A stretch of 62,543 bases of DNA, counting the filler, from Sphacelaria rigidula (taxonomy: Eukaryota), in assembly GCA_964200075.2 (NCBI GenBank). It is 10 parts of 10 records of this genome, joined end to end, with 100 filler letters (N's around TTAATTAATTAA, not from the genome) between each part and the next. Parts side by side here need not be neighbours in the genome. Positions count along the whole stretch, not along the records: positions 6,266 to 12,430 come from CAXNAA020021809.1; 9 more parts are not named here. The stretch is one strand, 5' to 3'. This document shows, in pieces, positions 1 to 56,379 of this stretch. A program made the position numbers and the translations under genes. A model generated the notes under the pieces. The model was given only the letters and a program-made list of their open reading frames with translations, had not been told where the DNA came from and ran no database searches. Each line of letters begins with the position of its first letter. Positions within the stretch are counted from its first letter, which is position 1.

Positions 1-3000
1 GAAGGCACTTCGCCCCCTCCACTACCGACGGGGATCTGCGGTGCTGCTCCGTCCCTCCCACCAACGGAACTCGGCGGGGAGGACGGCGCGCTTGAGGAAC
101 CGCTGGGCGAAGTGTCCACTGTCGGGCTTTTCGTCCTGTCTGCACCCACATCCTGGCCTTGATCGACGCTGGAATCCTTCAGCTCGCCCGGCGTCTGGAT
201 CGCTTACTGTAGTGTGCGGGGGAGGGCGGTGGACGTACGTGCCCATGTTACATGTCTTGTCACGGAGATAGTTCCTCGTACAGTCAGAACTCGCATCGCG
301 TCACGTGGGTAGCCTGGGGCTGGGCTCAAGTACCAGCATGTTTTGGCCTTCGGCTGTAATTTATTTGTCCGCTTCCTCCTACAAAGACCAGGCTTCACGA
401 ACGGAATGAGATCACCTTCTGGTGGTGATCCATACCACATCTCATGCGGTGAGATGTGGTGCGGGTTAGCCGAGGTAGCGGTACAGTTCAGGGTGTGATA
501 CGCCCAGTTTGCCTGTACAGCTTTGTGTGCCGTGAGTGACTATCTCGGACTATCATCGTGTACGACTTTCCCTCGTAAGACTTGACTGGTTTCGGCCCGG
601 AAAGATCTACAGACACCCTAGACGCTGACTTAGCTGCTCTCGTAAGCGTCGATCTTGGAATCCGTGCCCGCAGTCCTTTTGCCTCTGAGCAGCCGCGGCA
701 GGGCTGCAGCACTCCAGCCAGCTGCTTTCCCTGCTGCTTCGCCGTCTTCCTCAGTAAATCCTCGTGGACGTGCGCGTAGGAACAGTGGAATTCGTTGATG
801 TCAGCGGTCTAGGGGCTGGGCGGAGCCCCCGGGGCAATAACAGCATATGCCGAAGCACATTTGTCACTACCACTTTGATCGAGGCGGCGGGCATACATTC
901 TGAGTTGACGTGGTTGTCCGGGTATTATCAGCCTATTGCCTGAATTAAGATCTACCCTGAAACCATTACGAAACCCAGTGTAGGTGTGTCCCATGTATTG
1001 GACCCTCGTGAGTGACAAGAGGTGATGACGGACACCAGGTACATGGTCAACATCCACCAGTTTGAGGATTACATCCTGTCCGTCAGATCTGAAGGCAAGA
1101 GACAAATTTCCTCTGTCTACGATCGGGTAAGTACTACCTCCCGCGCACCGTAGTACCCTACCCTTGCACTCTCTATACTCCGTCATCCCATGGGAATCGT
1201 GGGAGAAATGCTGGGTAGCCCCCGTGTCAAATACCCATGGTTCGCCCTCACCCTGCTGACTACCACCCCCCCGCTCAACACTCAATGCATCCTCGCCTGT
1301 GTCGCCGTTGATAGTGGTGTCGAGAGAGGTGAAAACCTTCCCATCCTCCACCGAACAGACGGAGGAGCTGTCGCTGTCGTCGTCCGCGCCCGTCGCCATC
1401 ACCGCGTCTTCTTTCTTCGCTGTTGATCTCGGACAGTCCAAGAACGTGTGCCCCTGCTGGTCGCACCTCTCGCAGTATCTCTTCGGGCAGTTCCTGGCCC
1501 GATGCGTCGTGTTCTCGTCGCAAACGTGGCAACGGAGCAGCTGCCCAGTCGCCGGTTCGCCGTCCGACGATGCCGACCCAGAGCTACGCGAACTCTGGCT
1601 CCCGCCGTTTTTCTGACCAGAGCCCTGAGATTTTCCCGGTTTTCCCTTGTGGTGAGCACCGCTCGGTTTTCCGGTCCTACCCCCGGCAAGAAAAGCCTGA
1701 TCGCCCGGGGATTACTTCTTTCCCCCGGCAAGTTCCTGTTTCAAAGATGTTGATTCGAAACGCTCTCGAATCGAAGTCAACACAACCTCCCGTGTCAGCG
1801 GTCCCTCTCGATCCTCCAGCAGTTGCTTCTGGATATGATACTCGAAAGGCAACACGTTGAGGAATTTTTTGAGAATATGGTTTTCGCTTAGTCGCTCATG
1901 CTCCTCGTATGAATTCAGGTTACGTTCCTCCATCTCGAGCAGCTTCTGCTCTGGATCATCACGAACACCGATCTTAACTCCATCAAACGTTTCCAACAAA
2001 GCGGTTCTCGCCCCATTTGTTTTGGGGCGGAAGACATCCTCGAGTTTTTCCAAAGATCCGCAGAAGGTGAGTGGATTTCAAGCAAAATATCTTGCTCCCT
2101 CCTTCCTTCTAAACTAGCTACAAGCATTCGTCTGGCCCTCACGTTGGTCGACACTGTGTCCTTTCCATAACTACTCTCTAGATACCCCATTTCTATTTCA
2201 GGATTACCGACGTCTACATCGTAAAAACTATCGCCGGCCATGGTGAACACCAAGCGGATTCCTCCGCCCCTTGCGAAGTTGACCAGTTCGTGACTGTACC
2301 GAGCATAATCAGCCCTCTTCCCTGAAACGTTTGGGACGTTCTGTCGAAAAACGGAAACCCCTGACACACTTTCACTGGTACCGTTAAGTTGGATTGACTC
2401 ACGTGCGGGGACAAAGCCCTTAGCTTCGTCACTGGTGACCCCGTTGTCCCTGTCGTCGCGCGCTCCGTCCTCTGGAACAGCTTGGCTCCCGATGTACCGT
2501 CGCTCTCGCCGAACCCTCGCACCACGCGGTTCCGCTGTTCTATTTACGTTGAATTCCCCCCGTACACTATGGGAACTTTCACTACCGAGGACGCCGTTGT
2601 TTTCTGCGCTCCCGGCCTCTCTTACTGTCCTCATATTGTCCATGTTACTCTGTAATGTAGCTTGGCTTAGCTACATATCACGCATGAGCTGAGCCAAGGA
2701 ACTGATCTGACTACGTTGTTCTCACAACTCCTCAGTAACACCCTGCTCACCGAAAACCCTAGCAGGCCTAACACCTTGTTCTGCCATTCTGCCCAACCGG
2801 TTGGAACACTAGTGTATTCCGTGGCCCGTGGCGAAGGATAGATAGTTTTATCATATGTATTATTGGAGAGTGCCTAGACTGAGTCGACCCTATGACTAAG
2901 GGATCAGATGTTGAGTGAGCGCTCATGGCAGCTACCACGCTGCCATGAGCGGGGTACTGTAGTCACACACACTCGACTACCAGTACCCGCACGTCCGCAT

Positions 3001-6165: not shown

Positions 6166-6265
6166 NNNNNNNNNNNNNNNNNNNNNNNNNNNNNNNNNNN
6201 NNNNNNNNNTTAATTAATTAANNNNNNNNNNNNNNNNNNNNNNNNNNNNNNNNNNNNNNNNNNNN
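6166..6265. other. Artificial contig linker (N44-TTAATTAATTAA-N44)
   Basis: Exactly 100 bp; the 12-mer puts stop codons in all six frames; recurs every 6264-6265 bp. Confidence 0.97.
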
Positions 6266-7384
6266 AGAATCGTTAGGAGCCCCTGAACCAGACAAAAATT
6301 CGCGAAAAAAGTGCACCCCTACCGTAGCATTGCTCACAGCTCGTCATTCAAGATCGGGCCCTCATGCGTGACCGCCTTGAGGATGTCGGCCTCACGTTCT
6401 GTATCTGGTGGTCCCGGAAACGGTGTACGTACCACCTCTAATCTGTTCTGCTGTGGGACGGGGCGTCGACGAGTGTGCGTGATCGCGTGCTGTGCACGGT
6501 GCAGTGCTGTACGGGACTGCCATCACGCTATCTTGCCAGTCAGAACACCTCCGCATGTTCTGTTTACCCAGGGTAGGTGGTGAAAACAAAAATGCCCCCT
6601 CTTCGCCTCCGCCAACAAGACCGTTTCCCCCCCACTTTTCACTCTCGCCGGTCGGAAAACGCGCTTTGGACGGACGTTTGCATGAGCTGTCCTCGTACGA
6701 AATCAATCATATATATCGTTGGAATAACAGCACTTCTCCATATGCCCGTGCCAAAGGAGTTAACTGACCCCGGCCGCCAATTCACAGCCCTGCACATTAC
6801 ATTTCACACAGTGTCACGCCGGGGAACTCGTTTTTTTCTCTAGTCTTTTACACGACTCCGCGAAAAACGGTGGAACATGGTGGATGATGGCAAATATCCT
6901 GATTTCACGACGATGGTCCGCACCAGCTGTGCATGCAGCAGCGGCCCAGACACCATCGCCCAGGCGGAGGGAGCATGCGCGTGGAGGACTAAGGTATGTT
7001 GGTATATAGATAGGCAAGACCTCTGACAGATTGAAATGGCAACAGTGCTCTTTGCCGGGAGCTATCGCAGAATCCGTCCTGCCCCGGGTGAACACCACCC
7101 CCCCCTGCGAAACCTGACCTCCGGTGTCATGGGAGAGCACTGCGCTCGCGTAACACCACCGGCAGAGACAGAGAACGGTTTGAGCATCTGCACAAAGCAG
7201 CAGTTCCGTTGCAAAAGGATTTACTGATATCCATTAATGTCGCAGATAAAACGCGTTGACTAAAGTTTGAAAAGTTTGAATTTTTATCCGCACCAGCGCA
7301 TGGGTGCTGCAGAGAGCCCCCTTTCCGTCGTACAAGCTGTTAAACCCAGTACAGTATAGCCCCGCGCAGTACAATACCATGCAC

Positions 7385-7435
7385 CCCAGCGCAGCACAGA
7401 ACAGCACAGAACAGCACAGAACAGCACAGAACAGC
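7385..7435. repeat. (ACAGAACAGC)n simple repeat
   Basis: Four near-perfect 10-bp units. Confidence 0.85.
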
Positions 7436-7599
7436 TTAACTGCATGCAACGAAGTGCAGTGCAGCACAGAGTATTGTACAGTCTGTGTAGTGTTATGCGC
7501 GGGTATGAACTGAGCCGGCTGGCAGAAGAAACACTGTGTACAGTACTACTTTCGTACGTAAATGGCGGTCGTGATCTTGCCATCAAGATTCACGACGTT

Positions 7600-9380
7600 G
7601 CCAGATGCGGCCCTGGGAAACGTGTACTTCGGAGGGTCGTGTGCTCCATGGAGAAAAGTACCACACGCGCCTGGTGCCATTAGAGGCGCAATGATCGCAT
7701 GTTGGCAACGTGCGCCCGGGTTCCGACCACCACCAATGTGGAGGAAGATAAACGGAGTGTACAGAGCGCGGGAGGTGTCAAGAAACTCTTATTTAGAGTA
7801 ATGCTCGGCATCTTCTTTTCTCTCCGAATTCAGCAGGAATGCTGGTATCCCTTTGTTTTGTTCGACGAGGTGGAAAACGCCGAATGCCCCACTTTCAAAT
7901 TCTTATTCTGCACAGGCATGGGAGTAGCAGGCATCGAAGGCACCCCCCTACTCGTATCCTCTGCCGAAAGGGACTGGAGGATCAGTACTGTACCCTGCGT
8001 TAGCAGTAAGCAAGCAGTACGTAAATCCCTATTGTTCCTAGACAAAATCAGAACATAATACAGTGCAGTATTATAGGAGTATGGTAGATATTGTCGTTAT
8101 CCGTGGGGTATCCCAGTAGATATCAATGTTGTCTGCCAGTATAAGAGAGGAGGCAGCTTGGGGGCTGATGTAGCCATGGCGGCTGTAAAAGCAGGTTATT
8201 ATTATCCTGAGGCGCAGTTCATTGTTGCAGAGGTTTACCTGCCGACCCCCTTGCACTTTCCAACTCCCAAGTCTTATGTTCCCCTTGAATTCACCACGAA
8301 TGCTTTCCATTGGATATTTGAATTTACCAAAAAAAAGAGCCTGCAATTATTAGCTACGAAATGTTCAACATCGGTTGCTCCTGCAATCGTACATAAATTT
8401 CGAGTTGGGAATTTGGATTTTACAACAGTACAATACGATGATCGGATGCGGAGACCATGACAGATGATGACGCAGCAAGGAAGACTCCGTCGTCGTTGGA
8501 CCTTGCAGCACGAGGACCGCAATGTTGGATGCACCTAGAATCAAAAGCATTGATGTGCAATCCTACCCCACCCACCCCCCGGTTCATTCGCTGACCGTAG
8601 ATGCGGCAGATCCCCAAGACTCACACTTTGAATGCTACGTCTGGAGCACTTCTCAGACGCCAGTGGGGGCAGTCCGAACGTGAGATACAGCATCGCAATC
8701 GATCTCAAGGCAAAAGCACCACAACGCACTTGATGCAGCAATGCCGCGGGAAGAGTAAGCGCTGAAGATCGCGGGCACCTTTCTATATTACACTCGTTCC
8801 CGCTGATGGTTGTGTGTCTTGAACGGAATTGAGTATGCATACATTTCGGAATGATATCCTGTTCCATGAGCCCGCGACTCCTACGGTCGGGAAAAAAAAA
8901 GACCGCACGGCTAACACGTCGTGCCGATCTATCGTTATTCCGTATCCTCCCGACAGGTTGAGAAGTGCCTGCGCCATCCCGAGCGCCAACCCTCCAACAA
9001 GACGGGAACGGCAGGAGCAGCGTCAAGCGCGAGTGGTCTTGGCGGCGGTGTGGCGATGGCAGCCCGTCCGTGCAATTCAGCGGCGGCGTCAGCAGGGTCG
9101 GCGGTGTCGCCGATAGCGGCAGCTGTGGTGGGTGGAGGTGGCGATGGCAATGACATGAGAGGGGCGCCCCCGCGGACATCTGTTGACGCAGTGAAAGGCG
9201 GGGGGCGTGGTAGGGCGGCGCCGGCGCCGAGGATGGCGCCACGCGCGGATTTAGGCGCCAACTCGGGGTTCGTATATTGCGGCTTCATCAGGCGGCGAGG
9301 GGGGGGTCACAGCGGCGGGAACGCATCTGCAAGATCCAGGGGTCACCCACCGTCCTACTCATGACTCGAAACCCCATCTC
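7600..9380 (+). pseudogene. Decayed, apparently spliced upstream part of the PIN-CXC gene
   Basis: Protein-like fragments on + (ECWYPFVLFDEVENAECPTFKFLF...LLVSSAERDW; YGRYCRY...INVVCQYKRGGSLGADVAM; VRYSIAIDLKAKAP). Candidate acceptors at ~7833, ~8076 and 8956; donors at ~8016 and ~8756. Stops and frameshifts present. Confidence 0.45.
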
Positions 9381-10964
9381 ATGTGGTGGTGTCATGGCAG
9401 TGGGCTTGACCGGCGTATGCATAGCGCAGTTGGACCCGGTATAGGTGAGGGGGAGGTGTCCACACCCCACTTCATCATTCACTCCGGGACCTTATTCGAG
9501 AAGCATTTGAAAAAATGGCTAGTCACTCCCGTCGATACTGATCAGTGGATGTTTGCACTTTTGGCCATGGCGTGCGGGCATATCGAGCCGCAAGGCCCCA
9601 ACGCGGTTCAAGTAACTGTCAAATGGATTGTTAACGGGGGACCCCGATTCATCCTGGTGAACAGGGTGTACACTGCGCTCGTGACTTTGAGGAACGGGAG
9701 TGAAAGTGCTTGGTCCCCCGACGGACAGTATGATTGGCTGACGCATCCTGTCAAGATGGCGCTGTTCGTTTTCACCAACCTGTTGGCTGGCTGTGACTTC
9801 CTGCCGCGTGTATCCTGGATTCCTTTCCTCAAGATGTGGGAATTCGTGCTAAAGGCCCTGAGAACGCCAAATTTGTTCACTGAACCGATAGTGGTGATCG
9901 GAGAGGGTGGGCCAAGGGTGACGGTCAACGAGGGAGTGAAGCTGCTTGCTACGGTTTTTTTCTTCAGATACGAAAACGCTTTTGCGCAAATCGCCGCGGA
10001 TCCTGGACTTCTATTCACGACGTGTGGGCGGAACTTGGAGTCATTCGTGAACAAGATCCACCTGTGTATCTCCCCAGCGTATGGACACATGCCTTCTCGC
10101 TGCTGCCCGGATTTGGTCGCAAGCAGGATGCACGTGGCTAAGTCCGATGCAGTATTCGAATATTGGAAGGGGGTTGGGAAGAGCATGCCCACAATGAAAT
10201 TCAACGGGCGCGGATGGGGCGTTGAAGCGGAAAAGAAGACACACCATAAGGGTGGGGTGAAGACAGCGAGCAGAGGGACGGTGGAGCTCACACGGGACAA
10301 CATAGTGGTGTGCTTATCAAGCCACGCGTACGTGGATACATCCGGGAATGTGGAAACCCTCCCATGTGCTTGCAAGCCAAAAAGGGCGGCGCAGAGACGT
10401 CATCGGTGCCGGGGATGCAGATGTTTGGGGAACTGCACTCTGAGCTGCGGTTGCCAGGGCCGATGCATGTTGCCCCCTCCCAGTTCCCCGGCGACAGACA
10501 CGACGTCCACTGATAATACCGCCGCAGTAAACATCGGTGCACGCCGCCGACGTCATAAGGGGAGGGGAGGGTCGACGGCGAACCGTGGAAGAGGCGGGTC
10601 AGCGGGGAAGCATGGCAGGGGCGGGTCCGCCGCGAGCGATGGAAGGGACGGGTCAGCGGCGTTGCGTCCTACGGGCGAGGTGAATGGAGCGAGAAAAGCG
10701 CCAGGGGAAGGTGTAAATAATAGTCATGGTGTGGCGTCGTTCTGGCGCGACAGGGGGAGGGCGATGGGAGAGGGATCGGATCCGGAAACGGATCATACCC
10801 GTCGTAATTGTGGCGACAACGAAGGAGATGGAACCTCACAGGGCGGGTCGAAGTATTCAGCGGTGATCTGGATTGGAGATTCTGATTCCGGGTGCAGCGG
10901 GTCGGAGGGAGAGGATTCTGTATCGGATGCGGGCAAAAACCACGATGAGGATTTCACGTTTTGA
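9381..10964 (+). CDS. PIN-fold (XPG/FEN1/XRN-like) nuclease segment plus 9-Cys CXC cluster; probably the 3' part of a larger, possibly transposon-encoded gene
   Basis: 527 uninterrupted codons, frame open from ~9255. Acidic motifs GEGE (9444-9455), DTD (9534-9542) and LLAGCDFLP (GCDFLP at 9789-9806). P...H...W...GW segment. C-x-C-x11-C-x2-C-x-C-x3-C-x3-C-x-C-x3-C at 10365-10466. Disordered G/R-rich then acidic tail. Confidence 0.75.
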   Translation: MWWCHGSGLDRRMHSAVGPGIGEGEVSTPHFIIHSGTLFEKHLKKWLVTPVDTDQWMFALLAMACGHIEPQGPNAVQVTVKWIVNGGPRFILVNRVYTALVTLRNGSESAWSPDGQYDWLTHPVKMALFVFTNLLAGCDFLPRVSWIPFLKMWEFVLKALRTPNLFTEPIVVIGEGGPRVTVNEGVKLLATVFFFRYENAFAQIAADPGLLFTTCGRNLESFVNKIHLCISPAYGHMPSRCCPDLVASRMHVAKSDAVFEYWKGVGKSMPTMKFNGRGWGVEAEKKTHHKGGVKTASRGTVELTRDNIVVCLSSHAYVDTSGNVETLPCACKPKRAAQRRHRCRGCRCLGNCTLSCGCQGRCMLPPPSSPATDTTSTDNTAAVNIGARRRRHKGRGGSTANRGRGGSAGKHGRGGSAASDGRDGSAALRPTGEVNGARKAPGEGVNNSHGVASFWRDRGRAMGEGSDPETDHTRRNCGDNEGDGTSQGGSKYSAVIWIGDSDSGCSGSEGEDSVSDAGKNHDEDFTF

Positions 10965-12430
10965 TATAACCTGTAGAGGAAGCTGAAGACATGTATCGTG
11001 TAGATGGATTGCGCAGGTATATATGTAACCGCGGCTGTTCTTGTCTCCTCTTCTGGGTATTGAGAGCCCGTTCCTTGCGTTGATAGGAAATGTGTGCTGT
11101 GCTTAATGTGGTACTCCCTTGCGTCCACATCCATACGGCGAGTAGTTAGGCGATGCCCTTGGGCGAATCGCCGGTTGAAAGTGAAGATAAGCATTGATAG
11201 TAATCAAACGACTCAGAAAACACAATCAGGTAAAAGAAATGGCCGTGCATTTAACGTCTTGTATTTCTGTGCGACCCGGCCACCGCACGCGCATCGCCTC
11301 CAGGAGTTAGGCTGTGTCCAATTTTGTTCTGCACAGTGGGCGAACCGCCAGGCATCGTTGGTAACACTTATCGCAGTCGATAATCAAGATTGGGGAAGGA
11401 GTTTTTCAATGAGGATGGCTACCGGGAAAGTCGAAATGGTATTGTCTACACCACTTCTTCGACCCCTTGTTGCATTTGTTTAGGTACTGGCAGCCATTGG
11501 CCACAACTTCATGCTAAGCGATTGTGGATGCGGAGCACCGAAACTTTGAGGTCCAAGGTGAAAAGGCGATGTTGGGGAATGTAGGCGATCCTTTTGTATC
11601 GCGTCCGTTACCCATATATATATTTATATATTATCCAGGGGCCCCGAATTTCGGTGGTTGAAACCCAGAATTGTACAGCGTGCAGAGTTTACCGATTGCT
11701 GCCGGTGGGTGAAGGGATGCAACAAGTTGTCGAACAATTTGTGTGGATTCTATTATTTCAGCTTTCCGGTCATCATCCTCAATAAATACCTCTACCCTAT
11801 GACCTAATGTGCAATGTGCTGCACGCTAGAGAGACGATGTCGGATGGTGCTTTACCCCTCTTCCTAGGTGCCACTTTCTCACCGACATTCCGCCTGCACC
11901 ACACCGAACAGTCGATGTGACCACCTATTCTTCGAAGCAAACCGCGACACCATTTCAGCGGTACTACTCTTTTGATTCGGAACGCTTATGGTCTCGCGGA
12001 CGACACAGCGAGTTGGGGGGATGTGACTGTGCGTTACACGTTGCACAGTCATGCCGCAAGCACGCTGCACGCGCCATCCTAGAGACAACGGCATACACAT
12101 GTGTGTAACGTACAGCAGTTCCTACTGGCGGGCAATGTTGGTTGTTGCATGTATGTTTGCGGAAAAGAAAGATCCCCAAGATATATACGTAAAGTGGTGC
12201 TACGGTACAGGGGAGCACGAACATATTCCGAGCGTCGAAATAGCACGTGCCCTCTATCTCATCCGAACCTCGAGTAATGACGAGGTTTTCTCAAGTTTGA
12301 GAGTCTAGCGTTGATTGGGATTTCGTTTTTTATGTTTTACTCCAAATTGTCCATTTTTTCCGTTAACCGGGGATTTTATATATAACAGGGTTGCCAGAAA
12401 AATGAGAACGTATTTTGAAATGAGAATCAA

Positions 12431-12530
12431 NNNNNNNNNNNNNNNNNNNNNNNNNNNNNNNNNNNNNNNNNNNNTTAATTAATTAANNNNNNNNNNNNNN
12501 NNNNNNNNNNNNNNNNNNNNNNNNNNNNNN
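12431..12530. other. Artificial contig linker
   Basis: N44-TTAATTAATTAA-N44. Confidence 0.97.
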
Positions 12531-14294
12531 CCTGCTCCGGCTCGAAAGGGTCGCGGTGTCAAGGTTCAAACGACTAAGGCAAGCAACAAATAAGTACGCC
12601 CCCCCCCCCCCTTTACTACCTATGTTTTTACGCTATCTCGAGTTTTCTTCACGAGCGTTTCCGTGTTTCCGGCTGGGGTACATCAATTTTGCAACGACAG
12701 CTGGATTGGTGTTACAGTAATATTGGATCTATCGATGCGCAATTTTTCATCTATCCGTTCATCCATCAATCCAAACCAAATCTAGACCAAATCAACCAAT
12801 GTCATCCTCGCGCAGCCATCTCTTACTTACCAGCGTGATAATCTGCTGTGTCCATGTCGTGCCTGACTTCACGTAGGTGCACACATACAGGTCGTCGTCT
12901 CGGGTCTCGAACGTCTCGATCAGCTCGTTGATCGTTTTTTCCTGTCGTTTGTCGGCGGGGGGTTGGGTGGGTGAGGGGTGGGGGGGGGGGGGACAACAAC
13001 ATCAACAAAGGGGACACGAGAAATACGACAACTAGTGGAAACGGTCAATATATAGACGACAGAGAGATGAGAGGTAGGGACGGAAGGAGGGACGGAAGGG
13101 GAGTACCTGAAGTATCGTGATATTTGCGTACAATTTCCCGGATTCGAGTTGTGCGCTGGCGGCTGTGGCCCACGACTTGTCAGATGTGTACGTGAAACCA
13201 CTGGATCACCCAGCTGATTGGAGGTGGTGCTCAGTGGTTGGTTACATTTGCGTCTCTGATTTTTCTTCTTCGTTCAATGTTGAAAACAATGACATGGGGA
13301 AGTCGAGTCATTCGTGTGCTTTGCAACAACAACAACGACAACAACAAAACTGGTTACTTTTTGTTGTGCTTTCAAACAAAACTTGGGGGTGGGGGGGGAA
13401 GGATAATTTTGCTTTCTGACAAATATGCGAGTAAGTTGTGCATTACAGCAACAAGGAAAATTACAGGCGGGTAATGTATGCTTTCAACAAACATGTCCGT
13501 ACTTTTTGGCGTTTCTGACAGAAGGCTCATATCCGGGTCTCCTCAGCGGTCAAGGCTAATAGGTCTAGCGTCTTATAGCCCCGAGGGGTTTGCACTCCTT
13601 GAATCGAATACATCATTTCCCCCCCAAATGATCCACAAGCGCGGGATAGACACTGAACCACTCCGGAGCAGGCGAAACGATTTCGCAAAAAATATGGTGG
13701 AAAAAAGCGCGATGTTCACCACTGAACCGCTACTAGTAGACACACTAGCCGGCGCCCCTCACTCACCTGCCTCTGCGTCAAGGACCCGACATACCCCTGG
13801 TTGCACACTGCTGAGTGTAGTGATACTTCCGAGATTCTTCAAATCCCTCGTTTTTCGTTTGATTTCTTTTATATCGTGTTTTTTCATCACCACGACGGAC
13901 CGCACGACGTGGTGGGCAGCGCTGAAATGGGCTAATGATACGTACTGTAGCACTCCCATCGGCCGCAAATGTCACGATGACAGCCTGCCAAATGCTACCC
14001 CACGAGACAGAACGTTTTCCACTACAAAACCGGCAAAACTTAACTCGATAAAGTCACCATGGGCCGGGTGGGTGCTAGTCCAATTCCGAATAAACTGGAA
14101 TGCAAGGAAGGAATGGGGGGGGGGGGGGGGGGGGGGGGGCAATAAGGGGTTTATGGGGGGGGGTAAAAGACCTTCACCCGCCCACACTGCAGGGGGGGGG
14201 GGGGGNNNNNNNNNNGTGGTCGCGAGTTCCGTGCGAACCATGATAGAGGGGGGCGGGGGGGGGCGGGGGGGTGGGAGGGGGGGGGGGGGCGGGG

Positions 14295-14395
14295 GCATTC
14301 ATGATCTTCATGCGGTAGTCATATGACCGTTCACCTCGCATCCCTACAGGGCCGGGACGGAGCACGCCGGGTTTTCGCCGAACCAGGGCATGGGC
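14295..14395 (+). repeat. Dispersed repeat shared with 52795-52915; its downstream motif also occurs at 12575-12600
   Basis: ACCTCGCATCCCTACA..GCC.GGACGGAGCACGCCGGGTTTTCGCCG in both copies. Confidence 0.8.
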
Positions 14396-31323: not shown

Positions 31324-31589
31324 GCATGGTCATTTTTTTTCGTTTTTCGCTTTCTTTGTCCGCAAGGTACCTTGCCTAAAAAAAAAAAGGTCCATTACTG
31401 TATTCGTGCTCGTTGTAGAGGAAAATTTCTCTTCAGACCAAAATAGGCAACTATTTAGTTGTACAGGGCGTGCAACATTCAACGTCCTCAGATCATGTTC
31501 ACTTTGACAGTAATGTGAATCATTAGGCCTCTGTACCAGCGGCTGCAGCCCATGATGACGAACGTTCAACCTCAGATGTTCCCTTTGAT

Positions 31590-34500
31590 TTGGATATGAA
31601 TGGTGATGCCACTGTCCACCATGGTGATCATACCACTCATGTTCATGATGTACGTGCATTGCTATCGGGATCATCATCGACCACGGGATCCTCACGACCT
31701 AGATCTGTTGATCGGACCCATGTGAGTTCACGATTGCTCATAGATGCCTCGTTGCTTGACATTCCCGCATCTTTGCGAAACGGGCGCAGCACGAACCGTG
31801 CCCTTCCGCCCTACCCTGATGCTGCCACTGTACGTGCGGTGGAACGACCAATTGCAGATCTCCGTCGATACCTGCGATCTGCTCCAACCATGGCTCACAC
31901 CCAGGCACCTTCCACCACCTCTCCTATCGCGGCCACTCCAGCTCCTGCGGCTGCAGACATCGACACAGATGCGGAAAGCACCCGTGTCACGCCCCCCGCC
32001 CTCAGCGCGGCGGCCACTGCCGCTCCCGCGGCGGCGGCCGCGGATGACACCCCCATCACGGCCACTGATGAAAAATCTGCCACTTCGCCGCAGGCTTCTA
32101 CTGCCACGGGCTCGGCTCCGGCGCCTGCCCCCGGATCTATCACGGACGACCGCCCCCTGTTGGGCGTCGACCATTGCCCACCGGGCCTCCTGGCCTGGCT
32201 CTGGTTGCGAGGTCCCCGCTCCGATCAGGAGCAAATCCTCGAGGATTACCGCGCCATGCAACCGGCCACGCACCCTGCGCCACCTTCGCCCCGCCAAACG
32301 GCGGACGACGCTGCCCACCGTCTCCTTCATGACGACCTCACGGCACGTCTCACGCGCCGACGTCGAACCGTCGACTCGGCGACCAGCCGCCAGCAGGCAG
32401 CCCAGGAGACTCTGAATGAGCGTCTCGCGGCCTTTGACAAGATGCGCGACACCACCCGGCGCGATGAACACCGCCTGCGCCAATACACCGCGGCCACGGC
32501 CACCGCCACCTCCACTCTCCGATCTTTGGAACAAGAGCGACACCTTCCTCTTCTGAGGACAACGACGACCGCGTCAGCGCCTGCGCCTACCTCTGAACAT
32601 CCAGGCTCTGCGGAGAACCGTCGGCCATCGCGCCCATACGCTGCTGCTGCCGCTTCTACGGCCTCGCCTACGCGTATCCCGCCTGCACCACCGCAGGTCC
32701 CTCAGGCCTCGGCGTCCCCTACCCCCACACCTTGACTCCACCTTCAGGGCAGCGAACGTAGTTGGCTTTCTTGGGCGCTACGCCAACTTTCAAGGAAGTA
32801 TAACCGCAACGATTTTCTCCGCGCCTCTGAGCAGGCTTGGCGCTCACTAACTCTGCCCATAGATAGTGTGATCGTCCCCTTTCTTCAGCAAGGGGGACAG
32901 CTGCCGCACAGCGACCCAGGAGCTTTCACCATTGAACGAATCGTCCTCTACCTTACAATTGGTACCGGGGACAGTCGCCCCGCTTATGAGACCGCCGTCG
33001 CCGCCCTCTTCGCTGCTATGCGGGCAGCCCACAACTCGCTGCCGCCCGACGATGATGGGGCCTGGATCACACCCCCACCCCCTCGCCACCGTCGTCATGA
33101 TAACGACTCTGACGACGACCCTTCCGGGACCGCACCACACCGTGGTCAAGGGGCCCTCCGCAACAACAACGGTCGACGCACAACCCGGGGCAGCCACAAA
33201 CGGTCAGGTGATCAGTCTTCTAGTTCATCGACTGCCAGGCACCGCCACCACGCCTCAACGCGATCCGTGTGGCCCTCACCGGCCGTCAGGCAAGTAACGT
33301 TTAATTTAGCAGCTGCGTCTGCTCGCCTTTTGGGTCTCACGGATAGTGATAGTGACAATTCGGCTCGCCCATTGCCTTCAAACTCGGCTCGGTCACTAGC
33401 TGCCGCCGCCGCAGCCAAACAACAAGCTGCCGCTGATAAAGTCGCTTCCGATACTCGTTGAGAAGCGTCTCGTGTCGCTGCAATCATGCGTGAGTACTTA
33501 CAGATGGATGTAAAGGAACTCTGGCATATCAAAACCATGCTTGCTGCAGACAATGAGGACTCTGGTCAGTTTTCTTCCGCTCTCATTTCCTCAATGCGTC
33601 GAACGATGCGGAATATCCTTGAGTTGGCCGATGCAACTGGTCAACAACGTTTTGAAGACTCTGACTGGATTGACGGATGGCAAACACCGCTGCATGAGGC
33701 TTTGCACCGCTCAATCAACCGTCGCTCCCCTGACGCCATTGCTTCTTTGACGCAGATTCTCGACTCCTTCTTCGCCGCAATGGATCAAGATTGTGCCGGC
33801 GGGCAAACAGCGCCGCTACTATTCGGCAAATTGGAAAGGCGCATCATAAGTTATTTTGATAAGTCTGATCAGGCAGGCGCCATCAAGCGCCTCAGTTCCT
33901 TCGCCGTGGCAACAGACGTGCCCTTTGCTGACTACCTCCGCGAATTCAAGCTTTTGGTGTCTAGTGTAACTGGTACTGGCCGACAGAATGGCCCTAGTGA
34001 TGCTATGTGTCAGACGTATGTTCGCAATAGCATCGCTCAGCAGTTTCCGATGCTGATGCCGTCTCTATTTCCGGGCGCTTTGGCGCACAAAGAGGTGCCT
34101 TACGCCTCCGTAGACGCGATGTGGAATGCGTTTGTAGATCAAGAACATAATTTGACGCCTGCTATTCGTGGCACACAGTGTTCATCTGGGTCTCCGCAAA
34201 CCTTGCGTGCCGCATCCATTAGTACCTCCGGGTCTCGTGGACGCACTCAGACTTTGTCCAGTAATCCTTGGACACCCAACTCTGTCGGTGGATCGGTCAT
34301 GTCTGTTCGTAGCAAAAAAGACCCGTTCCGTGCAAGCTTCGACGCTTGGCCTTTTTCGTCAGACACTTTTGATGACGTTTATGTCGTTCCCACAACTGCT
34401 TTCATCACCGATGACCCACATTTGTGGACCCCCTTGCTTTCGCCTTCGGCTCGCAAGGATACTTTTCGTCGCCATGCTAACATATGCATCAACTGCAATG

Positions 34501-34856
34501 GTACTGGCCACAGTATGCGTGACTGCCCTGAACCTTGCATCAATACTCTTTTGCTCATGAACCCTGAACTTCAGAGCAACAGGCAGGCGTGGCGCCGATG
34601 GCAAAAATGCATGCGCGAGTATCGTCCACCTTCTCGCCACCATCGCCAGCCTTACCACAATCATAGCGACTCTCGCTCAAATCGCGACCACTGCCACACC
34701 ACCAACACCGTTTCCGGTAGTCGTCATAGAGATAGTTCTTTCCGCCCTTCTCAGTCTTGGCACGGCCATCACCAGCGAACGGGGCCGACGCACGACAACT
34801 CCAACCCCAATGCCAGAAACCCTGGTTCTTTCATGACGGATCGGAACGATCCATGA
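31590..34856 (+). pseudogene. Long gag-like ORF (~1090 codons) with in-frame stops
   Basis: ORFs 31590, 32868 and 33486 share one frame; CCHC knuckle CINCNGTGHSMRDC at ~34485-34526. Confidence 0.75.
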
Positions 34857-37410
34857 CACGCCGACGACGGCGTGAAGTCTTCGGCGCCGCCGATAGCAAC
34901 ATCGAAGACCATCCAACACACACTCGGGTGACAAAACGTTCTCACCCAACACTATGTAGGAGATCTCCTGACGGCCGTTCTTCTCGACCCCGGTCTTTAT
35001 CTTCATACACACAGCGTAACCGTTGTGCTGACTCACAACCCAGCTCTATGCTTGGCTCCAGACTTGGTCCCCCGGAACTAAGTATAAATCTGAGGTGTGG
35101 GGAGACCGACCGCGGACCCTTGAGGCACAGGCTTCCCTCAACGCCCGCACGCACCGGTTGTAGTAGACTTCCTTCACCTGGTTCTGGTGTTGATGGTTCG
35201 AAACTGACCACTTCAAACCCTTCGACTCCTACCCAGCCTGATCGTAGTCGTTTTTCGCACCATTCTTCTGCTGCGAAACTACCCCCAAGTACTGCCGACA
35301 ACACTCGTCCCCTTTCACATTTAGCAGTGCCCTTTGTACCGAGCTTGCCAGCGGACAGTCCACAACTTTCGGCCGAGCATGCCCCGATGCTGGCAACATC
35401 ACCTCAACTGGACGCAGTTGCAGTTTCCCAAGAAGTCTCGGAAGTTCCCAGCCATTTGTCACGGCACGAGAGGAAGCCTCGTCGTCATGCCCGCAAGGAA
35501 GCGCGAGCATTGACACGCCCCCCTCCCGTCAGCGGAAAATTCCGACCTCATTCTTCCCAAAAAGCGGCGGCTTTGAGCTCGATGACATTGCCAGGCATCC
35601 AAGAGGAATCAAAATCGGACCTTTCAGACGGTACCGCATCCTCCACCGATGACCCCCGTAGCGCATCGCAGCAATCTCTATTCAATGATGACCCTTGTAC
35701 TTCCAAGCCAGTCATCTACGAGATTCATCAAAATCCTTATTCACGCTGCCCTTCACGGTCGGATCAGACCCCCGCGCTGTCTACCGATACCTTCGAACCC
35801 CCCGCAGATCACCCGCCATCCGTTTTCACGGTCAGTCCAACTAATCCTGACCTATTTACCTTATCTGAACATGGCCCTGACCTTGTTGGTGGTCAGGTGT
35901 CCGTTGATCCTGCCACCTTCACTACTGGCGTAGCATTACACTGCGACCCTTACGCCACCGCGCGCGCCAAGTGCGTCTCGTTGTTAGACAGCGGTAGTCC
36001 ACAGAAATTCATCAACGAATCCATATGGAATCATATGAAGTAGACTAGGGCTGCTTCCGATGTCTGCGAAATCATCACCCAACCTCGCGTTTGGGGCGGT
36101 TTCGGTGACTCCAAAACACCCTTGACGACACGAAACTCTGTTCATCTTAGTGTGCAATTTTTCCACAATGATACACGTTCGGCTAGTCTCGCACTTTGCG
36201 CTCACATCGTCCCTGATAGCACCATGCATCATGCTCTCCTTCTTGGCAGAGATAGCTACATGCGGTTCGACCAACGTACGTACCGCACCCTCCCACCATT
36301 ATGGCCTCAGTCGGCGTCTCGTGGAGAACTCCGATTAGAACACTTTGGTACCCTCAGTGGTGCCTTAGCCTACAAAAAGAATGAGCAGGTTACCGGAGCG
36401 GCTTACCATCTTCGGTACAATGGCAGTTCTGGCGTCACCCTTTCCGACGAGCCTCAACTCTTGGAAGTTTTGCTTGTTCGCTGCAACGGTATGCCTGCCC
36501 TCACCGACGACTACTTTGCGGAATTTCTGCGTAAAGTTGGCGCGCCCGCTGGCACTGAGCATTTTGTCTCGGACGGCGAACAACTCCTACCTTTCACAGG
36601 CCGTGCTAATTTGGAACCTAGCGATGACTTGGACATCGCCGCGGCTCCTCTTATGCACATTCCTCTGGAGACCTGTGTAGCCGACCCTCCGGGGCCTGAT
36701 CTCACGCCACCGACTGATGGTTTTGTTCACTGCGTTGATGAGCGACACTTCAATATATCCGCCTCACCCCCGACTCGGATTTCTACGGTGGAATCCGACC
36801 GACCCCCTGCTGAACCTCCTGATGAAGGGCTTCAACGCTTATCAGTCGAGTCTCGGGAACATTTCCTGCAATTGTGGCACCAACTTCCACATCATTTTCG
36901 TGATGTTCATTTTGACCTACATGGTCCGGGCTGGGAGCCCACCGTCATCCAAGAGCTACAAGATGTTCTCCTGGAATATCAGGACAGATTTTCCCGATCC
37001 AAGACGGATCTCGGGCATTGTAAAACATTGCCATTCGAGATAAAACTGCAACCTGGCGTTTCGCCAATCTCATCTCGACCACATCGAACGAATCCCCTCC
37101 TCACCAAAAAAGGCAATGCTAGTTTGGATGCATACTTAAGAGCTGGTCTGATTCAACACTCGTCTTCGCCATGGGCCTCACCCCTCGTGGTTGTCCCCAA
37201 AAAAGATGGCAACATACGTATCACCGTGAATTACAAACGGCTGAATCGCGTCACTGTCGTGGGGAAACTCCCCATACCTCGCATCGACGATGTCTTCGAC
37301 TCCGTCGGCGAAGGCAAAATATTCAGCACTTTCAATCTGGCATCTGGATTTTTCCAAAATGCAATTCACCCTGATACAGTTCCCTTGACAGCGTTCTGTA
37401 CATCTTCAGG
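34757..37410 (+). pseudogene. Gypsy pol (protease and N-terminal RT)
   Basis: SLLDSGS and LLLGRD protease motifs with a stop at 36041; RT SPWASPLVVVPKKDGNIRITVNYKRLN...PIPRIDD...GFFQ...TAFCT; similarity ends at ~37410, before the YxDD motif. Confidence 0.92.
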
Positions 37411-37487
37411 TTTCTTTTTAACCCTTTTGGAACCGTTGATGGACTGAGGATTTACAACTGAGGTTTTTCCCACAATAAATGGTTGTT

Positions 37488-48200: not shown

Positions 48201-49149
48201 GTGGAGCGCAGGTTTGTTGGGCTACGGTAGACAAGGAAGGCTATGCAATCCTAAGTACTTTCCGTATGTTGGAGTATCTTCTACGGGGTGGGGTACATAT
48301 CTCTACAGATCATCATAACCTGGCATACATGTTTAAACCCGAGGCGTGCGTTGCATTCGTGTCTAAGACTACTGCCCAGAGGCTTGAGCAATGGAAGGCT
48401 GTGCTTGGGCAGTACGATCATTACTCCATCAGGCACATTGCTGGTAAGCGCAAGTACTGGGGAGATTTATTATCAAGGTGGGTAACAAACGTTCGGGCGG
48501 TGTCTATGCGTGCTGCGGCCGTGTTTGCGAGCGGTCAGCCTGATGAAACGCTGCCGTCGAAGAACGCTATTCGTGAGGCCCAAGAGCAGGCCCAAGCCGG
48601 GTTCGGAGTGATGGATGCTGGAGCCCCTACTTTTGCAGCAGCTGTTGGGCGAGTTTCGAAAGCAGTGAGGGTTTATTTCGCGTGCATGTAGCAGGGCGGA
48701 ATTTGTTGTGGATCCCGCCGCAAGCAAAAGAGGTGCAAACGCGCTTGATGGTGTGTGCTCACATGAAGGAGGCGGGTCATCGGGGTGTTGTAGCGATACT
48801 GCAGCGGCTTCAAGAGTATTGCTATCGGTTTCGGATGGAAGCTCATGTGACGGATTTTGTGAGGAAATGCTTACATTGTGTGGACTCGAAAGCGGGTGAG
48901 ACGGTCCCGCGGCCACTGGGGGAGACAGTGCATGGCACACGGCCCGGTGAGGTGATACATTTTGATTATCTGTACGTTGGCGAAAGTGGTCCGCTGGGCG
49001 AAAGCGGCCTGGATAAAGGCGACGGGTACATATTTGTAATGATGTATAATCTGTGCCATTTCGCGTGGTTGGAGCCCACCGAGTCTGGTACAGCTGCAGC
49101 GACTGTGCAGCATCTGCTGGCGTGGTGCAAGACGTTGGGGGCATCGTGA
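45250..49149 (+). pseudogene. Ty3/Gypsy gag-pol relic (gag-PR-RT-RNase H-partial integrase)
   Basis: Knuckle CFECGDKGHNKKGC; protease VLESGAG (D to E); RT DYRAVNK...KIDMLQGY*QMPL...AWVDDILWWG; RNase H FPDASDLHWG, DKEGYAI, TDHHNL, GDLLSRW; integrase HMKEAGH...CLHC, HFDYLYVG; truncated at ~49145; several stops and frameshifts. Confidence 0.95.
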
Positions 49150-56279: not shown

Positions 56280-56379
56280 NNNNNNNNNNNNNNNNNNNNN
56301 NNNNNNNNNNNNNNNNNNNNNNNTTAATTAATTAANNNNNNNNNNNNNNNNNNNNNNNNNNNNNNNNNNNNNNNNNNNN
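56280..56379. other. Artificial contig linker
   Basis: N44-TTAATTAATTAA-N44. Confidence 0.97.

What the first reader, a model, noticed from the sequence alone, without database searches (positions are those of the whole stretch)
9381..10964. PIN/XPG-XRN-like nuclease fused to a 9-Cys CXC cluster: candidate uncharacterised mobile-element protein
Seen: a 1.58-kb uninterrupted ORF with GEGE, DTD and LLAGCDFLP in order, then CCPD...H...EYW...GWG, then nine Cys in a CXC pattern, then a disordered tail. Known: FEN1/XPG/XRN nucleases use ExD/GEGE, DxD and G(C/N)D(Y/F) acidic motifs in this order, and Tesmin/TSO1-type CXC domains are 9-Cys zinc clusters that bind DNA. The characterised FEN1, XPG, EXO1, GEN1 and XRN proteins do not end in such a cluster. 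Inference: a DNA-processing protein of a poorly described transposon or integrated element. I recall similar PIN+CXC hypothetical multicopy proteins in invertebrates but cannot verify that here. The N-terminal PIN aspartates are not in this ORF and would have to come from upstream exons.
Basis: partly seen in the sequence, partly recalled or inferred. Interest (0 to 1): 0.8.

Follow-up and report, generated by a model that had tools for sequence, protein, structure and literature searches.

The report
Truncated transposon nuclease gene, brown alga
The open reading frame is real. It is the rear two thirds of a DNA/RNA-cutting enzyme plus a zinc-type cysteine cluster from a many-copy jumping-gene family of brown algae; this copy has lost the front of the enzyme and the transposase, so it is a relic and not a new kind of system.

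Summary

No Pfam or PDB sequence search recognises the protein. A confident AlphaFold model of a full-length relative (P0005) matches only the FEN/EXO1/XRN 5'-nuclease superfamily. The top 17 VIA rows score Z 8.7-15.4, and the next, unrelated row scores 6.2.

The family is large: 531 cluster representatives at E<=1e-3. Every named member comes from a brown alga, and many members are fragments.

Full-length gene models, such as the 1802-aa P0190, place a DUF6589 domain (the putative transposase) in front of the nuclease within one protein. As I recall it, this is the AcademX lineage architecture of Academ DNA transposons: transposase plus XPG-type nuclease plus a Cys cluster.

The window copy starts at residue ~208 of the nuclease. 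It lacks the first two of seven active-site acids and the whole transposase. Neither was found in the 3 kb upstream.

No terminal repeats or target duplications could be defined, because the window is a chain of ten unconnected 6.2-kb blocks.

Verdict: an ordinary, truncated transposon gene from a little-studied superfamily, possibly in a new host lineage.

The parts
9255..10964 (+). Open frame of 569 codons plus the TGA stop. The first in-frame ATG is at 9381. Homology to relatives starts at about 9270.
9270..10170 (+). Rear two thirds of a FEN/EXO1/XRN-type 5'-nuclease domain, aligning to P0005 from residue 208. It keeps 5 of the 7 acidic residues: E65 and E67 (9444-9455), D94 and D96 (9534-9542) and D181 (9789-9800). 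The first two Asp and the first core strands are absent.
   Evidence: P0001 agrees with 50 of 57 highly conserved family columns.
10171..10364 (+). Strand-rich linker carrying the GWG motif, between the nuclease and the Cys cluster.
   Evidence: (strands 529-566 of the P0005 model).
10365..10466 (+). Nine-cysteine cluster (C371, C373, C385, C388, C390, C394, C398, C400, C404), presumed to bind zinc.
   Evidence: Each Cys is kept in 32-41 of the 36-42 family sequences that cover it. No Pfam CXC model matches.
10467..10961 (+). Low-complexity tail, RG-rich and then acidic. It includes a 27-nt tandem repeat at 10569-10661 (3.4 copies).
   Evidence: The equivalent tail of P0005 is modelled with pLDDT below 50.
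10965..11748 (+). Probable 3' untranslated part of the repeated unit.
   Evidence: contigs of the RNA-guess runs X8 and X9 (1345 and 1309 nt, about 90-92% alike) run from 10430/10431 to 11724/11748.
6910..6991 (+). Probable upstream exon A. Its end at 6991 is followed by a GTATGT donor.
   Evidence: joint 6991->8599 in X8 and X9 only, none in DNA runs X1 and X4.
8599..8709 (+). Probable upstream exon B. It is preceded by an AG acceptor at 8597-8598 and followed by a GC..AG intron at 8710-8956.
   Evidence: joints 6991->8599 and 8707->8955, the latter with 3 ambiguous letters.
8957..9254 (+). Start of probable exon C, GC-rich and low-complexity. Frame 2 is open here and resembles the N-terminus of Sphacelaria protein P0003, which suggests a frameshift near 9250 relative to that relative.
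   Evidence: local alignment scores 70 in frame 2 and 64 in frame 0; the sequence is low-complexity, so this is weak.
6166..6265 (.). Artificial linker (N44-TTAATTAATTAA-N44) that bounds the block on the left.
12431..12530 (.). Artificial linker that bounds the block on the right.

Best explanation
**What it is.** The ORF is the 3' part of the single large gene of a cut-and-paste DNA transposon family of brown algae. Its full-length protein reads, in order:
- a Cys-rich N-terminus
- a DUF6589 domain, the putative DDE transposase
- a FEN/EXO1/XRN-type 5'-nuclease
- a nine-Cys cluster
- an acidic tail

As I recall it, this is the architecture of the AcademX lineage of the Academ superfamily.

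**How the intact element probably works (inferred, not shown).** The transposase would cut and join the 3' ends. The second, structure-specific nuclease would cut or trim the other strand at the element ends, as TnsA does beside TnsB in Tn7. The zinc cluster would hold DNA.

**The window copy.** It begins at residue ~208 of the nuclease. It lacks the transposase, the first core strands of the nuclease and two of the seven metal-binding acids. It is therefore a truncated or internally deleted, non-autonomous copy. Its product, if made, cannot be an active nuclease.
For: **Shown.**
- Fold: the P0005 model has mean pLDDT 77.8, with 391 residues at 90 or more.
  - Foldseek against PDB gives 34 hits at E<=1e-3. 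The 31 of these that are listed are all XRN1, XRN2/Rat1, EXO1 or mycobacterial FEN, with the best at 2.8e-9.
  - The top 17 VIA rows are all 5'-nucleases: EXO1 at Z 15.4 over 272 residues, XRN1 at Z 15.1 over 358 residues. The next row scores Z 6.2.
- Seven acids lie in the canonical order and at the canonical strand or helix ends in P0005: D85, D130, E271, E273, D300, D302, D388.
- The family is large and fragmentary. There are 531 representatives at E<=1e-3, 302 at E<=1e-10 and 75 at E<=1e-30, and most of the 150 listed are shorter than 300 aa.
- Of 42 proteins, 26 carry a source name, and all 26 are from brown algae. Sixteen of them are from one Ectocarpus assembly.
- One protein carries both domains. 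P0190 (1802 aa) has DUF6589 at 685-935 (E 6e-5) and the nuclease from about 1195. P0191 matches DUF6589 at 28.7 bits, above the cut-off of 27. P0170, P0171, P0177, P0178, P0183, P0192, P0194 and P0099 span the same junction.
- In the source organism's DNA runs, 9305 (X1) and 7954 (X4) contigs lie on the 6.2-kb block at 85% identity or more. Single ORF positions are covered by up to 37 variant contigs.
- The window lacks the N-terminal part and any transposase part.

**Leads only.**
- Atlas look-alikes of both domains occur in Mollusca, Arthropoda, Cnidaria and Mucoromycota.
- PMC10045372 (passage read) says AcademX encodes a nuclease and makes 3-4-bp duplications.
Against: - No terminal inverted repeats or target-site duplications were found. 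The best inverted match between 6336-6950 and 11500-12430 scores 21, against a shuffled mean of 20.6.
- The equation of DUF6589 with the Academ transposase rests on earlier AI notes and recall. The fold of the DUF6589 part could not be obtained, because the model had pLDDT 51.
- No Pfam XPG or XRN model matches any of the 87 members. The nuclease is therefore far from the XPG-like sequences by which AcademX was named, and an independent fusion is not excluded.
- The retained part of the ORF is well kept, at 50 of 57 conserved columns and with no stop in 569 codons. Three Sphacelaria gene models start at or after the same point. Together these fit a maintained truncated form as well as a recent relic.
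- Fused gene models may merge neighbouring genes.
Confidence: 0.7

Rival explanations
1. The N-terminally truncated nuclease-plus-Cys-cluster ORF is a maintained form in its own right in the Sphacelaria lineage. It would have its own 5' exons and be transcribed. It would act without catalysis, for example as a DNA-end-binding repressor of the parent transposon (as the KP protein of the P element does), or as a domesticated host factor.
For: - The ORF is open for 569 codons and keeps 50 of 57 conserved columns.
- Sphacelaria rigidula models P0002 and P0003 begin at the same point, and P0004 begins further in.
- Contigs of the RNA-guess runs X8 and X9 join two upstream exons with GT..AG and GC..AG introns. 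These joints are absent from the DNA runs. The same runs cover the ORF and about 780 nt beyond it at 89-92% identity, while the intron bins have depth 0-6.
Against: - The contigs are 8-11% different from this copy, so they come from other copies.
- The RNA label of X8 and X9 is a guess by the tool.
- Gene-model starts can be prediction artefacts.
- There is an in-frame stop at 9252-9254 and a possible frameshift near 9250.
- Many diverged copies fit a transposon better than a host gene.
- No selection test was possible.
Confidence: 0.17
2. A host housekeeping nuclease gene, an orthologue of XRN, EXO1, FEN1, GEN1 or Asteroid, whose first exons lie beyond the block.
For: The fold is that of these enzymes. 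Only 3 kb upstream is available for inspection.
Against: - No sequence model of these families matches.
- There are hundreds of diverged and fragmentary copies.
- Relatives are fused to DUF6589.
- The Cys cluster and the tail are foreign to those enzymes.
Confidence: 0.03
3. A gene of an integrated giant virus (a phaeovirus-type provirus) of brown algae.
For: Brown algal genomes carry such proviruses (general knowledge). Giant viruses encode XRN-like nucleases, and these are the best viral fold matches at E 3e-8 to 1e-5.
Against: - No relative was found in 2.9 million viral contigs: 66 pattern matches, 0 confirmed.
- Viral fold matches are no closer than cellular XRN1.
- Splice-like introns lie upstream.
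- The rest of the window holds retrotransposon pieces and no viral hallmark genes.
Confidence: 0.03

Closest known systems
AcademX lineage of the Academ superfamily of eukaryotic DNA transposons (Kapitonov and Jurka 2010, Repbase Reports; Kojima 2020, Mobile DNA 11:15). Neither paper is held, so I know them from recall and from a passage in PMC10045372.
   Same: In full-length relatives, one large protein joins a transposase-like domain to an XPG/FEN-type nuclease and a Cys cluster. The family is many-copy and fragmentary. Atlas look-alikes occur in molluscs and arthropods, and molluscs (bivalves) are rich in Academ elements (PMC10294476 passages).
   Different: - The host is a brown alga. As I recall, the described hosts are animals, fungi and a red alga.
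- The nuclease is too diverged for any Pfam XPG or XRN model, and Foldseek ranks it nearest XRN.
- No termini or 3-4-bp duplications were seen.
- The window copy lacks the transposase and the front third of the nuclease.
XRN1/XRN2 (Rat1) 5'-3' exoribonucleases
   Same: These are the best Foldseek matches (9e70_A at E 2.8e-9). XRN1 gives the longest structural alignment, Z 15.1 over 358 residues reaching model residue 566. The order of acidic motifs is the same.
   Different: - Sequence identity is 11-15%, and no sequence-level match exists.
- The domain sits inside a transposon protein, behind a DUF6589 domain.
- A nine-Cys cluster follows it.
- The substrate (RNA or DNA) is unknown.
EXO1 / FEN1 / XPG / GEN1 structure-specific DNA nucleases
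   Same: EXO1 gives the top VIA score (Z 15.4, rmsd 3.6 A, 272 residues). FEN1, XPG and GEN1 score Z 11.5-12.9. The family has seven acids in the same order, and its GCDF motif sits where FEN1 has its last aspartate (recalled).
   Different: - Pfam XPG_N and XPG_I do not match.
- No PCNA-type tail is present.
- A Cys cluster is fused at the C-terminal side.
- The family is many-copy.
Tesmin/TSO1 CXC (Pfam TCR, PF03638) and other Zn3Cys9 clusters
   Same: Nine conserved Cys lie within about 34 residues, with CxC pairs. One Atlas look-alike cluster carries TCR in 36% of its members.
   Different: The TCR model does not match the window protein at E<=10, nor any of 87 relatives at E<=1. The spacing differs. 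Zinc binding was not tested.
Tn7 TnsA/TnsB two-nuclease transposase (analogy in mechanism only)
   Same: A DDE enzyme is paired with a second, unrelated nuclease that could cut the other strand.
   Different: The folds are unrelated, since TnsA is restriction-enzyme-like. The system is bacterial. The analogy is inference and was not tested.

Membership tests
FEN/EXO1/XRN 5'-nuclease superfamily (PIN-like) | The characteristic alpha/beta fold with a helical arch and DNA-binding region. | tested here: met
   This was tested on relative P0005, not on the window protein itself. The top 17 VIA rows score Z 8.7-15.4 and the next row scores 6.2. Foldseek gives 34 hits at E<=1e-3; the 31 of these that are listed are all from this superfamily.
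FEN/EXO1/XRN 5'-nuclease superfamily (PIN-like) | Seven conserved acidic metal ligands in a fixed order. | tested here: inconclusive
   Full-length relatives have D85, D130, E271, E273, D300, D302 and D388 (P0005 numbering) at the expected strand and helix ends. No residue-level superposition was available.
FEN/EXO1/XRN 5'-nuclease superfamily (PIN-like) | The complete catalytic domain is present in this window's ORF. | tested here: not met
   The ORF aligns only from P0005 residue 208 and keeps 5 of the 7 acids. The N-terminal profile finds nothing in the window, with best E 8.4 among 2011 pieces.
FEN/EXO1/XRN 5'-nuclease superfamily (PIN-like) | A match to the sequence models XPG_N, XPG_I or XRN_N. 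| tested here: not met
   No such Pfam match occurs in P0001 at E<=10 or in 87 relatives at E<=1. PDB sequence and profile searches return nothing.
Academ / AcademX DNA transposons | A single protein containing both a transposase and an XPG-type nuclease. | tested here: inconclusive
   DUF6589 plus the nuclease sit in one gene model in P0190 and in eight further models. That DUF6589 is the Academ transposase rests on earlier AI notes and recall. Its fold could not be modelled.
Academ / AcademX DNA transposons | Terminal inverted repeats and 3-4-bp target-site duplications. | tested here: inconclusive
   No inverted repeat exceeds chance within the 6.2-kb block. The block is cut at both ends, and no other genomic copies could be fetched.
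Academ / AcademX DNA transposons | Sequence relationship to Repbase Academ proteins. | not testable with these tools
   Repbase sequences and the defining papers are not held.
Tesmin/TSO1 CXC domain (PF03638) | A match to the family model. | tested here: not met
   There is no match in P0001 at E<=10, and none in 14 and 87 relatives at E<=1.
Tesmin/TSO1 CXC domain (PF03638) | Nine conserved Cys able to form a Zn3Cys9 cluster. | tested here: inconclusive
   Nine Cys are present and conserved. Metal binding and cluster geometry were not tested.
KDZ-transposase-associated CxC domains (Pfam CxC1-CxC6; family names recalled) | A match to any of these models. | tested here: not met
   The whole-Pfam scans list none of them.
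Integrated giant virus of brown algae | Relatives in viral genomes, or viral hallmark genes nearby. | tested here: inconclusive
   In IMG/VR, 0 of 66 pattern matches were confirmed. Viral fold matches are remote XRN-like proteins. The other blocks of the window are not adjacent DNA.

The most novel reading that the evidence does not exclude
Two readings remain open.

1. Brown algae (stramenopiles) host a deep, so far unannotated branch of Academ-type transposons. Its second nuclease is structurally nearer to XRN exoribonucleases than to XPG.
2. In the Sphacelaria lineage, a front-truncated, catalytically dead nuclease-plus-zinc-cluster derivative, with its own spliced 5' exons, has been amplified and is transcribed. 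It would serve as a DNA-binding regulator of the parent element.
Probability: 0.18. Interest if true: 0.5.

Novelty: new member of a known kind. Interest (0 to 1): 0.3.

Why it matters
- It gives a name and a fold to a large set of brown-alga "unnamed protein products". At least 16 gene models in one Ectocarpus assembly belong to it, and all inflate gene counts.
- No Pfam model covers this nuclease domain. Structure prediction places it in the FEN/XRN superfamily.
- If the Academ assignment holds, the known host range of the two-nuclease AcademX design extends to stramenopiles.
- The family offers intact Ectocarpus copies in which to test what a second, 5'-nuclease does in cut-and-paste transposition. 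That question is still open for the superfamily.
- The window copy itself is a relic.

Tried and rejected
- **Own-genome search.** No genome is held for this window. Copy number, flanks and synteny could not be examined directly.
- **Other copies inside the window.** None. After the self-match, the next tblastn hit has E 0.71.
- **Public collections.** The IMG/VR scan gave 66 pattern matches and the JGI metagenome scan gave 135. None was confirmed.
- **Sequencing runs.** No RNA holder is listed on record.
- **Sequence-level annotation.**
  - Pfam on P0001 gives only a chance-level GCM hit (E 4.2).
  - Pfam on 14, 20, 11 and 87 relatives gives nothing relevant.
  - PDB sequence and profile searches give nothing. 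A single uS2 hit at E 0.58 is noise.
- **Second AlphaFold job.** P0170, which carries the DUF6589 part, gave mean pLDDT 51 and was not used for any fold search.
- **Terminal inverted repeats within the block.** None above shuffled controls.
- **Other ORFs of the block.** Seven ORFs of 124-263 aa on both strands, including the antisense ORFs 8541-9284 and 9608-10399, have no Pfam family. I take them as by-products of GC-rich coding sequence.
- **Literature.**
  - Kojima 2020 and Yuan and Wessler 2011 are not held.
  - No held paper contains Academ together with XPG and transposase.
  - The only held paper with both Academ and Ectocarpus is the Fanzor paper PMC3627910, seen as a listing only.
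  - DUF6589 occurs in one preprint, as a passing mention.
- **Complex prediction.** Not used, because no binding claim is made.
Full report
**Observation.** On the + strand one frame is open from 9255 to the TGA at 10962-10964, 569 codons in all. All listed motifs are present in the stated order:
- GEGE 9444-9455
- DTD 9534-9542
- LLAGCDFLP around 9789-9800
- CCPD 10101-10112
- EYW 10158-10166
- GWG 10212-10220
- nine Cys at 10365-10466, in the pattern C-x-C-x11-C-x2-C-x-C-x3-C-x3-C-x-C-x3-C
- a 164-residue tail rich in G, S, A, R and D

The tail contains a 27-nt tandem repeat at 10569-10661. The ORF is not a chance frame, because its best relative matches at E 2e-176 with 70% identity.

**The window is not one stretch of genome.** It consists of ten blocks of 6164-6165 nt joined by 100-nt linkers of the form N44-TTAATTAATTAA-N44. 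At the one junction I could test, a reverse-transcriptase frame stops before the linker at 37487 and does not resume in the 1.5 kb after it. Only 6266-12430 therefore counts as the surroundings of this ORF. Other blocks hold Copia- and Gypsy-type pieces. The window has no second copy of the ORF.

**What sequence searches say.**
- Pfam finds nothing in the protein beyond a chance-level hit.
- PDB sequence and profile searches find nothing.
- A word-indexed search found 13 relatives. The six with names are from the brown algae Sphacelaria rigidula (three, up to 70% identity), Scytosiphon, Ectocarpus and Pylaiella.
- A full HMMER profile search found 531 cluster representatives at E<=1e-3, 302 at E<=1e-10 and 75 at E<=1e-30. 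Most of the 150 listed are short fragments.
- A second indexed search listed 42 proteins. Of these, 26 carry a source name, and all 26 are brown-algal. Sixteen come from a single Ectocarpus assembly.
- None of the 87 members I scanned matches a Pfam XPG, XRN or CXC model.

**Fold.**
- Full-length relatives (P0005, P0008, P0009) carry about 200 more residues in front. These include two further aspartate motifs, VDLPVSIHQG and YDR.
- I modelled P0005 with an 87-sequence alignment. Mean pLDDT is 77.8, 391 residues are at 90 or more, and only the two ends are disordered.
- Foldseek against PDB gave 34 hits at E<=1e-3. They are led by human XRN1 (2.8e-9), XRN2 and Rat1, and followed by EXO1 and a mycobacterial flap endonuclease; FEN1 follows at E of about 6e-3 and weaker.
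- The search that does not rely on Foldseek gave 17 top rows that are all 5'-nucleases. EXO1 scores Z 15.4 with 272 aligned residues at 3.6 A, and XRN1 scores Z 15.1 with 358 aligned. FEN1, XPG, T5 exonuclease, GEN1, T4 RNase H, ExoIX and Pol I 5'-exonuclease follow, down to Z 8.7. The score then drops to 6.2 for unrelated folds.
- Against viral models the best matches are giant-virus XRN-like proteins at a similar distance.
- In the model, the seven acids D85, D130, E271, E273, D300, D302 and D388 sit at the strand ends and helix starts where this superfamily places its metal ligands. The canonical placement is established knowledge, and I could not superpose residues.

**The window copy is incomplete.**
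- It aligns to P0005 only from residue 208. It therefore lacks about 155 residues of the fold, including the first two aspartates, and keeps E65, E67, D94, D96 and D181.
- tblastn with 13 relatives places every significant match (E 3e-5 or better) within 9258-10961.
- A profile of the N-terminal domain scores no better than E 8.4 among 2011 six-frame pieces of the window.
- What is retained is well kept. P0001 agrees with 50 of 57 columns that are at least 80% conserved, and two of the seven mismatches lie at the ragged start. The nine Cys are each kept in 32-41 of the 36-42 sequences that cover them.

**What the gene belongs to.**
- Longer Ectocarpus and Pylaiella gene models continue upstream of the nuclease.
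- A search with that upstream part found P0190, an 1802-aa EukProt protein, and nine other proteins.
- Pfam places DUF6589 at 685-935 of P0190 (E 6e-5). It matches P0191 at 28.7 bits, above the curated cut-off of 27, and P0192 at 25.9 bits.
- The nuclease starts at about residue 1195 of P0190.
- The alignment shows the same continuous junction...PYSMANAxGGAKHANKxxGP..., in P0170, P0177, P0192, P0194 and P0099. Conserved DNxD, GDEET, PGDWH and DERQE motifs lie further upstream. Some models also have a Cys-rich N-terminus.
- None of this upstream part is present in the window.
- I could not obtain a fold for it, because the second model had pLDDT 51. A PDB profile search was also empty.

**Behaviour in the source organism.**
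- Runs coded X1 and X4 (DNA) hold the block. Some of their contigs have no differences and a depth of about 70-80.
- In total, 9305 and 7954 contigs lie on the 6.2 kb at 85% identity or more. They are spread over all identity classes. At single ORF positions up to 37 contigs carry another letter.
- This shows many diverged copies. The tool warns that summed depth is not a copy number, and I use it only in that qualitative sense.
- In X8 and X9, which the tool only guesses to be RNA, contigs 89-92% alike cover 9418-10120 and 10430-11748.
- Two joints are seen only in those runs. They are 6991->8599, with a GTATGT donor and an AG acceptor, and 8710->8957, a GC..AG intron. The intron bins have depth 0-6 there, against 995-2485 in the DNA runs.
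- One abundant contig joins these exons to 10298-10445. This suggests that further internally deleted forms are transcribed.
- These contigs come from other copies, not this one.
- The N-terminus of Sphacelaria protein P0003 aligns weakly to frame 2 just upstream of the stop at 9252-9254. This hints at a frameshift in the window copy.

**Interpretation.** A large, fragmentary, lineage-wide family fuses a transposase-like domain, a second nuclease and a Cys cluster into one protein. That is a DNA transposon gene.
- The architecture is the one I recall for AcademX: one protein with a transposase and an XPG nuclease, and 3-4-bp duplications.
- The defining papers are not held.
- From PMC10045372 I read only the passage saying that AcademH encodes a helicase and AcademX a nuclease, with 9-10-bp and 3-4-bp duplications respectively.
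- Earlier notes of this scan describe AcademX with the same three parts and link DUF6589 to Academ-type elements. These are leads, not evidence.
- Atlas look-alikes of both domains occur in molluscs, arthropods, cnidarians and Mucoromycota. Of these groups, bivalve molluscs are reported as Academ-rich (PMC10294476 passages).

**Mechanism.** This is inferred and not shown. The transposase handles the 3' ends. The FEN/XRN-type nuclease cuts or resects the complementary strand at the ends. The zinc cluster binds DNA. The window copy cannot do this.

**What remains open.**
- No termini or target duplications were found, and no other genomic copies could be fetched.
- Membership in Academ is untested at sequence level.
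- The good preservation of the truncated ORF, and the shared start of the Sphacelaria models, leave room for a maintained, non-catalytic derivative.
- A host housekeeping nuclease and a provirus gene are both unlikely. The reasons are the copy number, the DUF6589 fusion and the empty viral scan.

**Verdict.** Interest is low to moderate.

Noticed in passing
window 6166-6265, 12431-12530, and every ~6264 nt up to 56280-56379: The window is built from ten equal blocks of 6164-6165 nt joined by N44-TTAATTAATTAA-N44 linkers. At the one junction tested (37487/37588), a reverse-transcriptase frame does not continue. Neighbouring blocks should not be read as adjacent DNA.
   Followed up: partly
window 809-1711 (-), 31527-37447 (+), 45374-48691 (+): These are LTR-retrotransposon pieces. 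One is Copia-type, with a Pol beta-barrel domain. Two are Gypsy-type stretches, carrying a zinc knuckle, RVT_1, an aspartyl protease and RT_RNaseH.
   Followed up: partly
window 6266-6335 and 12384-12430: Both ends of the block belong to an extremely abundant repeat. Summed contig depth is about 918,000 and 484,000 in run X1, against about 75 for unique parts. Hundreds of contigs diverge right after 6335, as at the end of a repeat.
   Followed up: no
window 6910-6991, 8599-8709, 8957 onward: Splice-like joints, one GT..AG and one GC..AG, are seen only in the RNA-guess runs. They link two short upstream exons to the ORF region. One abundant contig skips on to 10298-10445, as in an internally deleted copy.
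   Followed up: partly
window 10569-10661: A 27-nt tandem repeat (3.4 copies) inside the coding tail encodes RGRGGS-like units.
   Followed up: no
window 7392-7435; 12954-12991 and 14102-14299: There is a CAGCACAGAA microsatellite (4.4 perfect copies), and long G-runs of up to 48 nt.
   Followed up: no
relatives P0164, P0193, P0195 (Ectocarpus gene models): The far N-terminus of the full-length transposon protein is Cys-rich and looks like a zinc-finger region. It has no Pfam match. P0150 joins it directly to the rear of the nuclease, as a deletion derivative or a merged gene model would.
   Followed up: no
relatives: No Pfam model covers this nuclease domain in any of the 87 members scanned, although the fold prediction is confident. 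The family would be a candidate for a new profile.
   Followed up: partly
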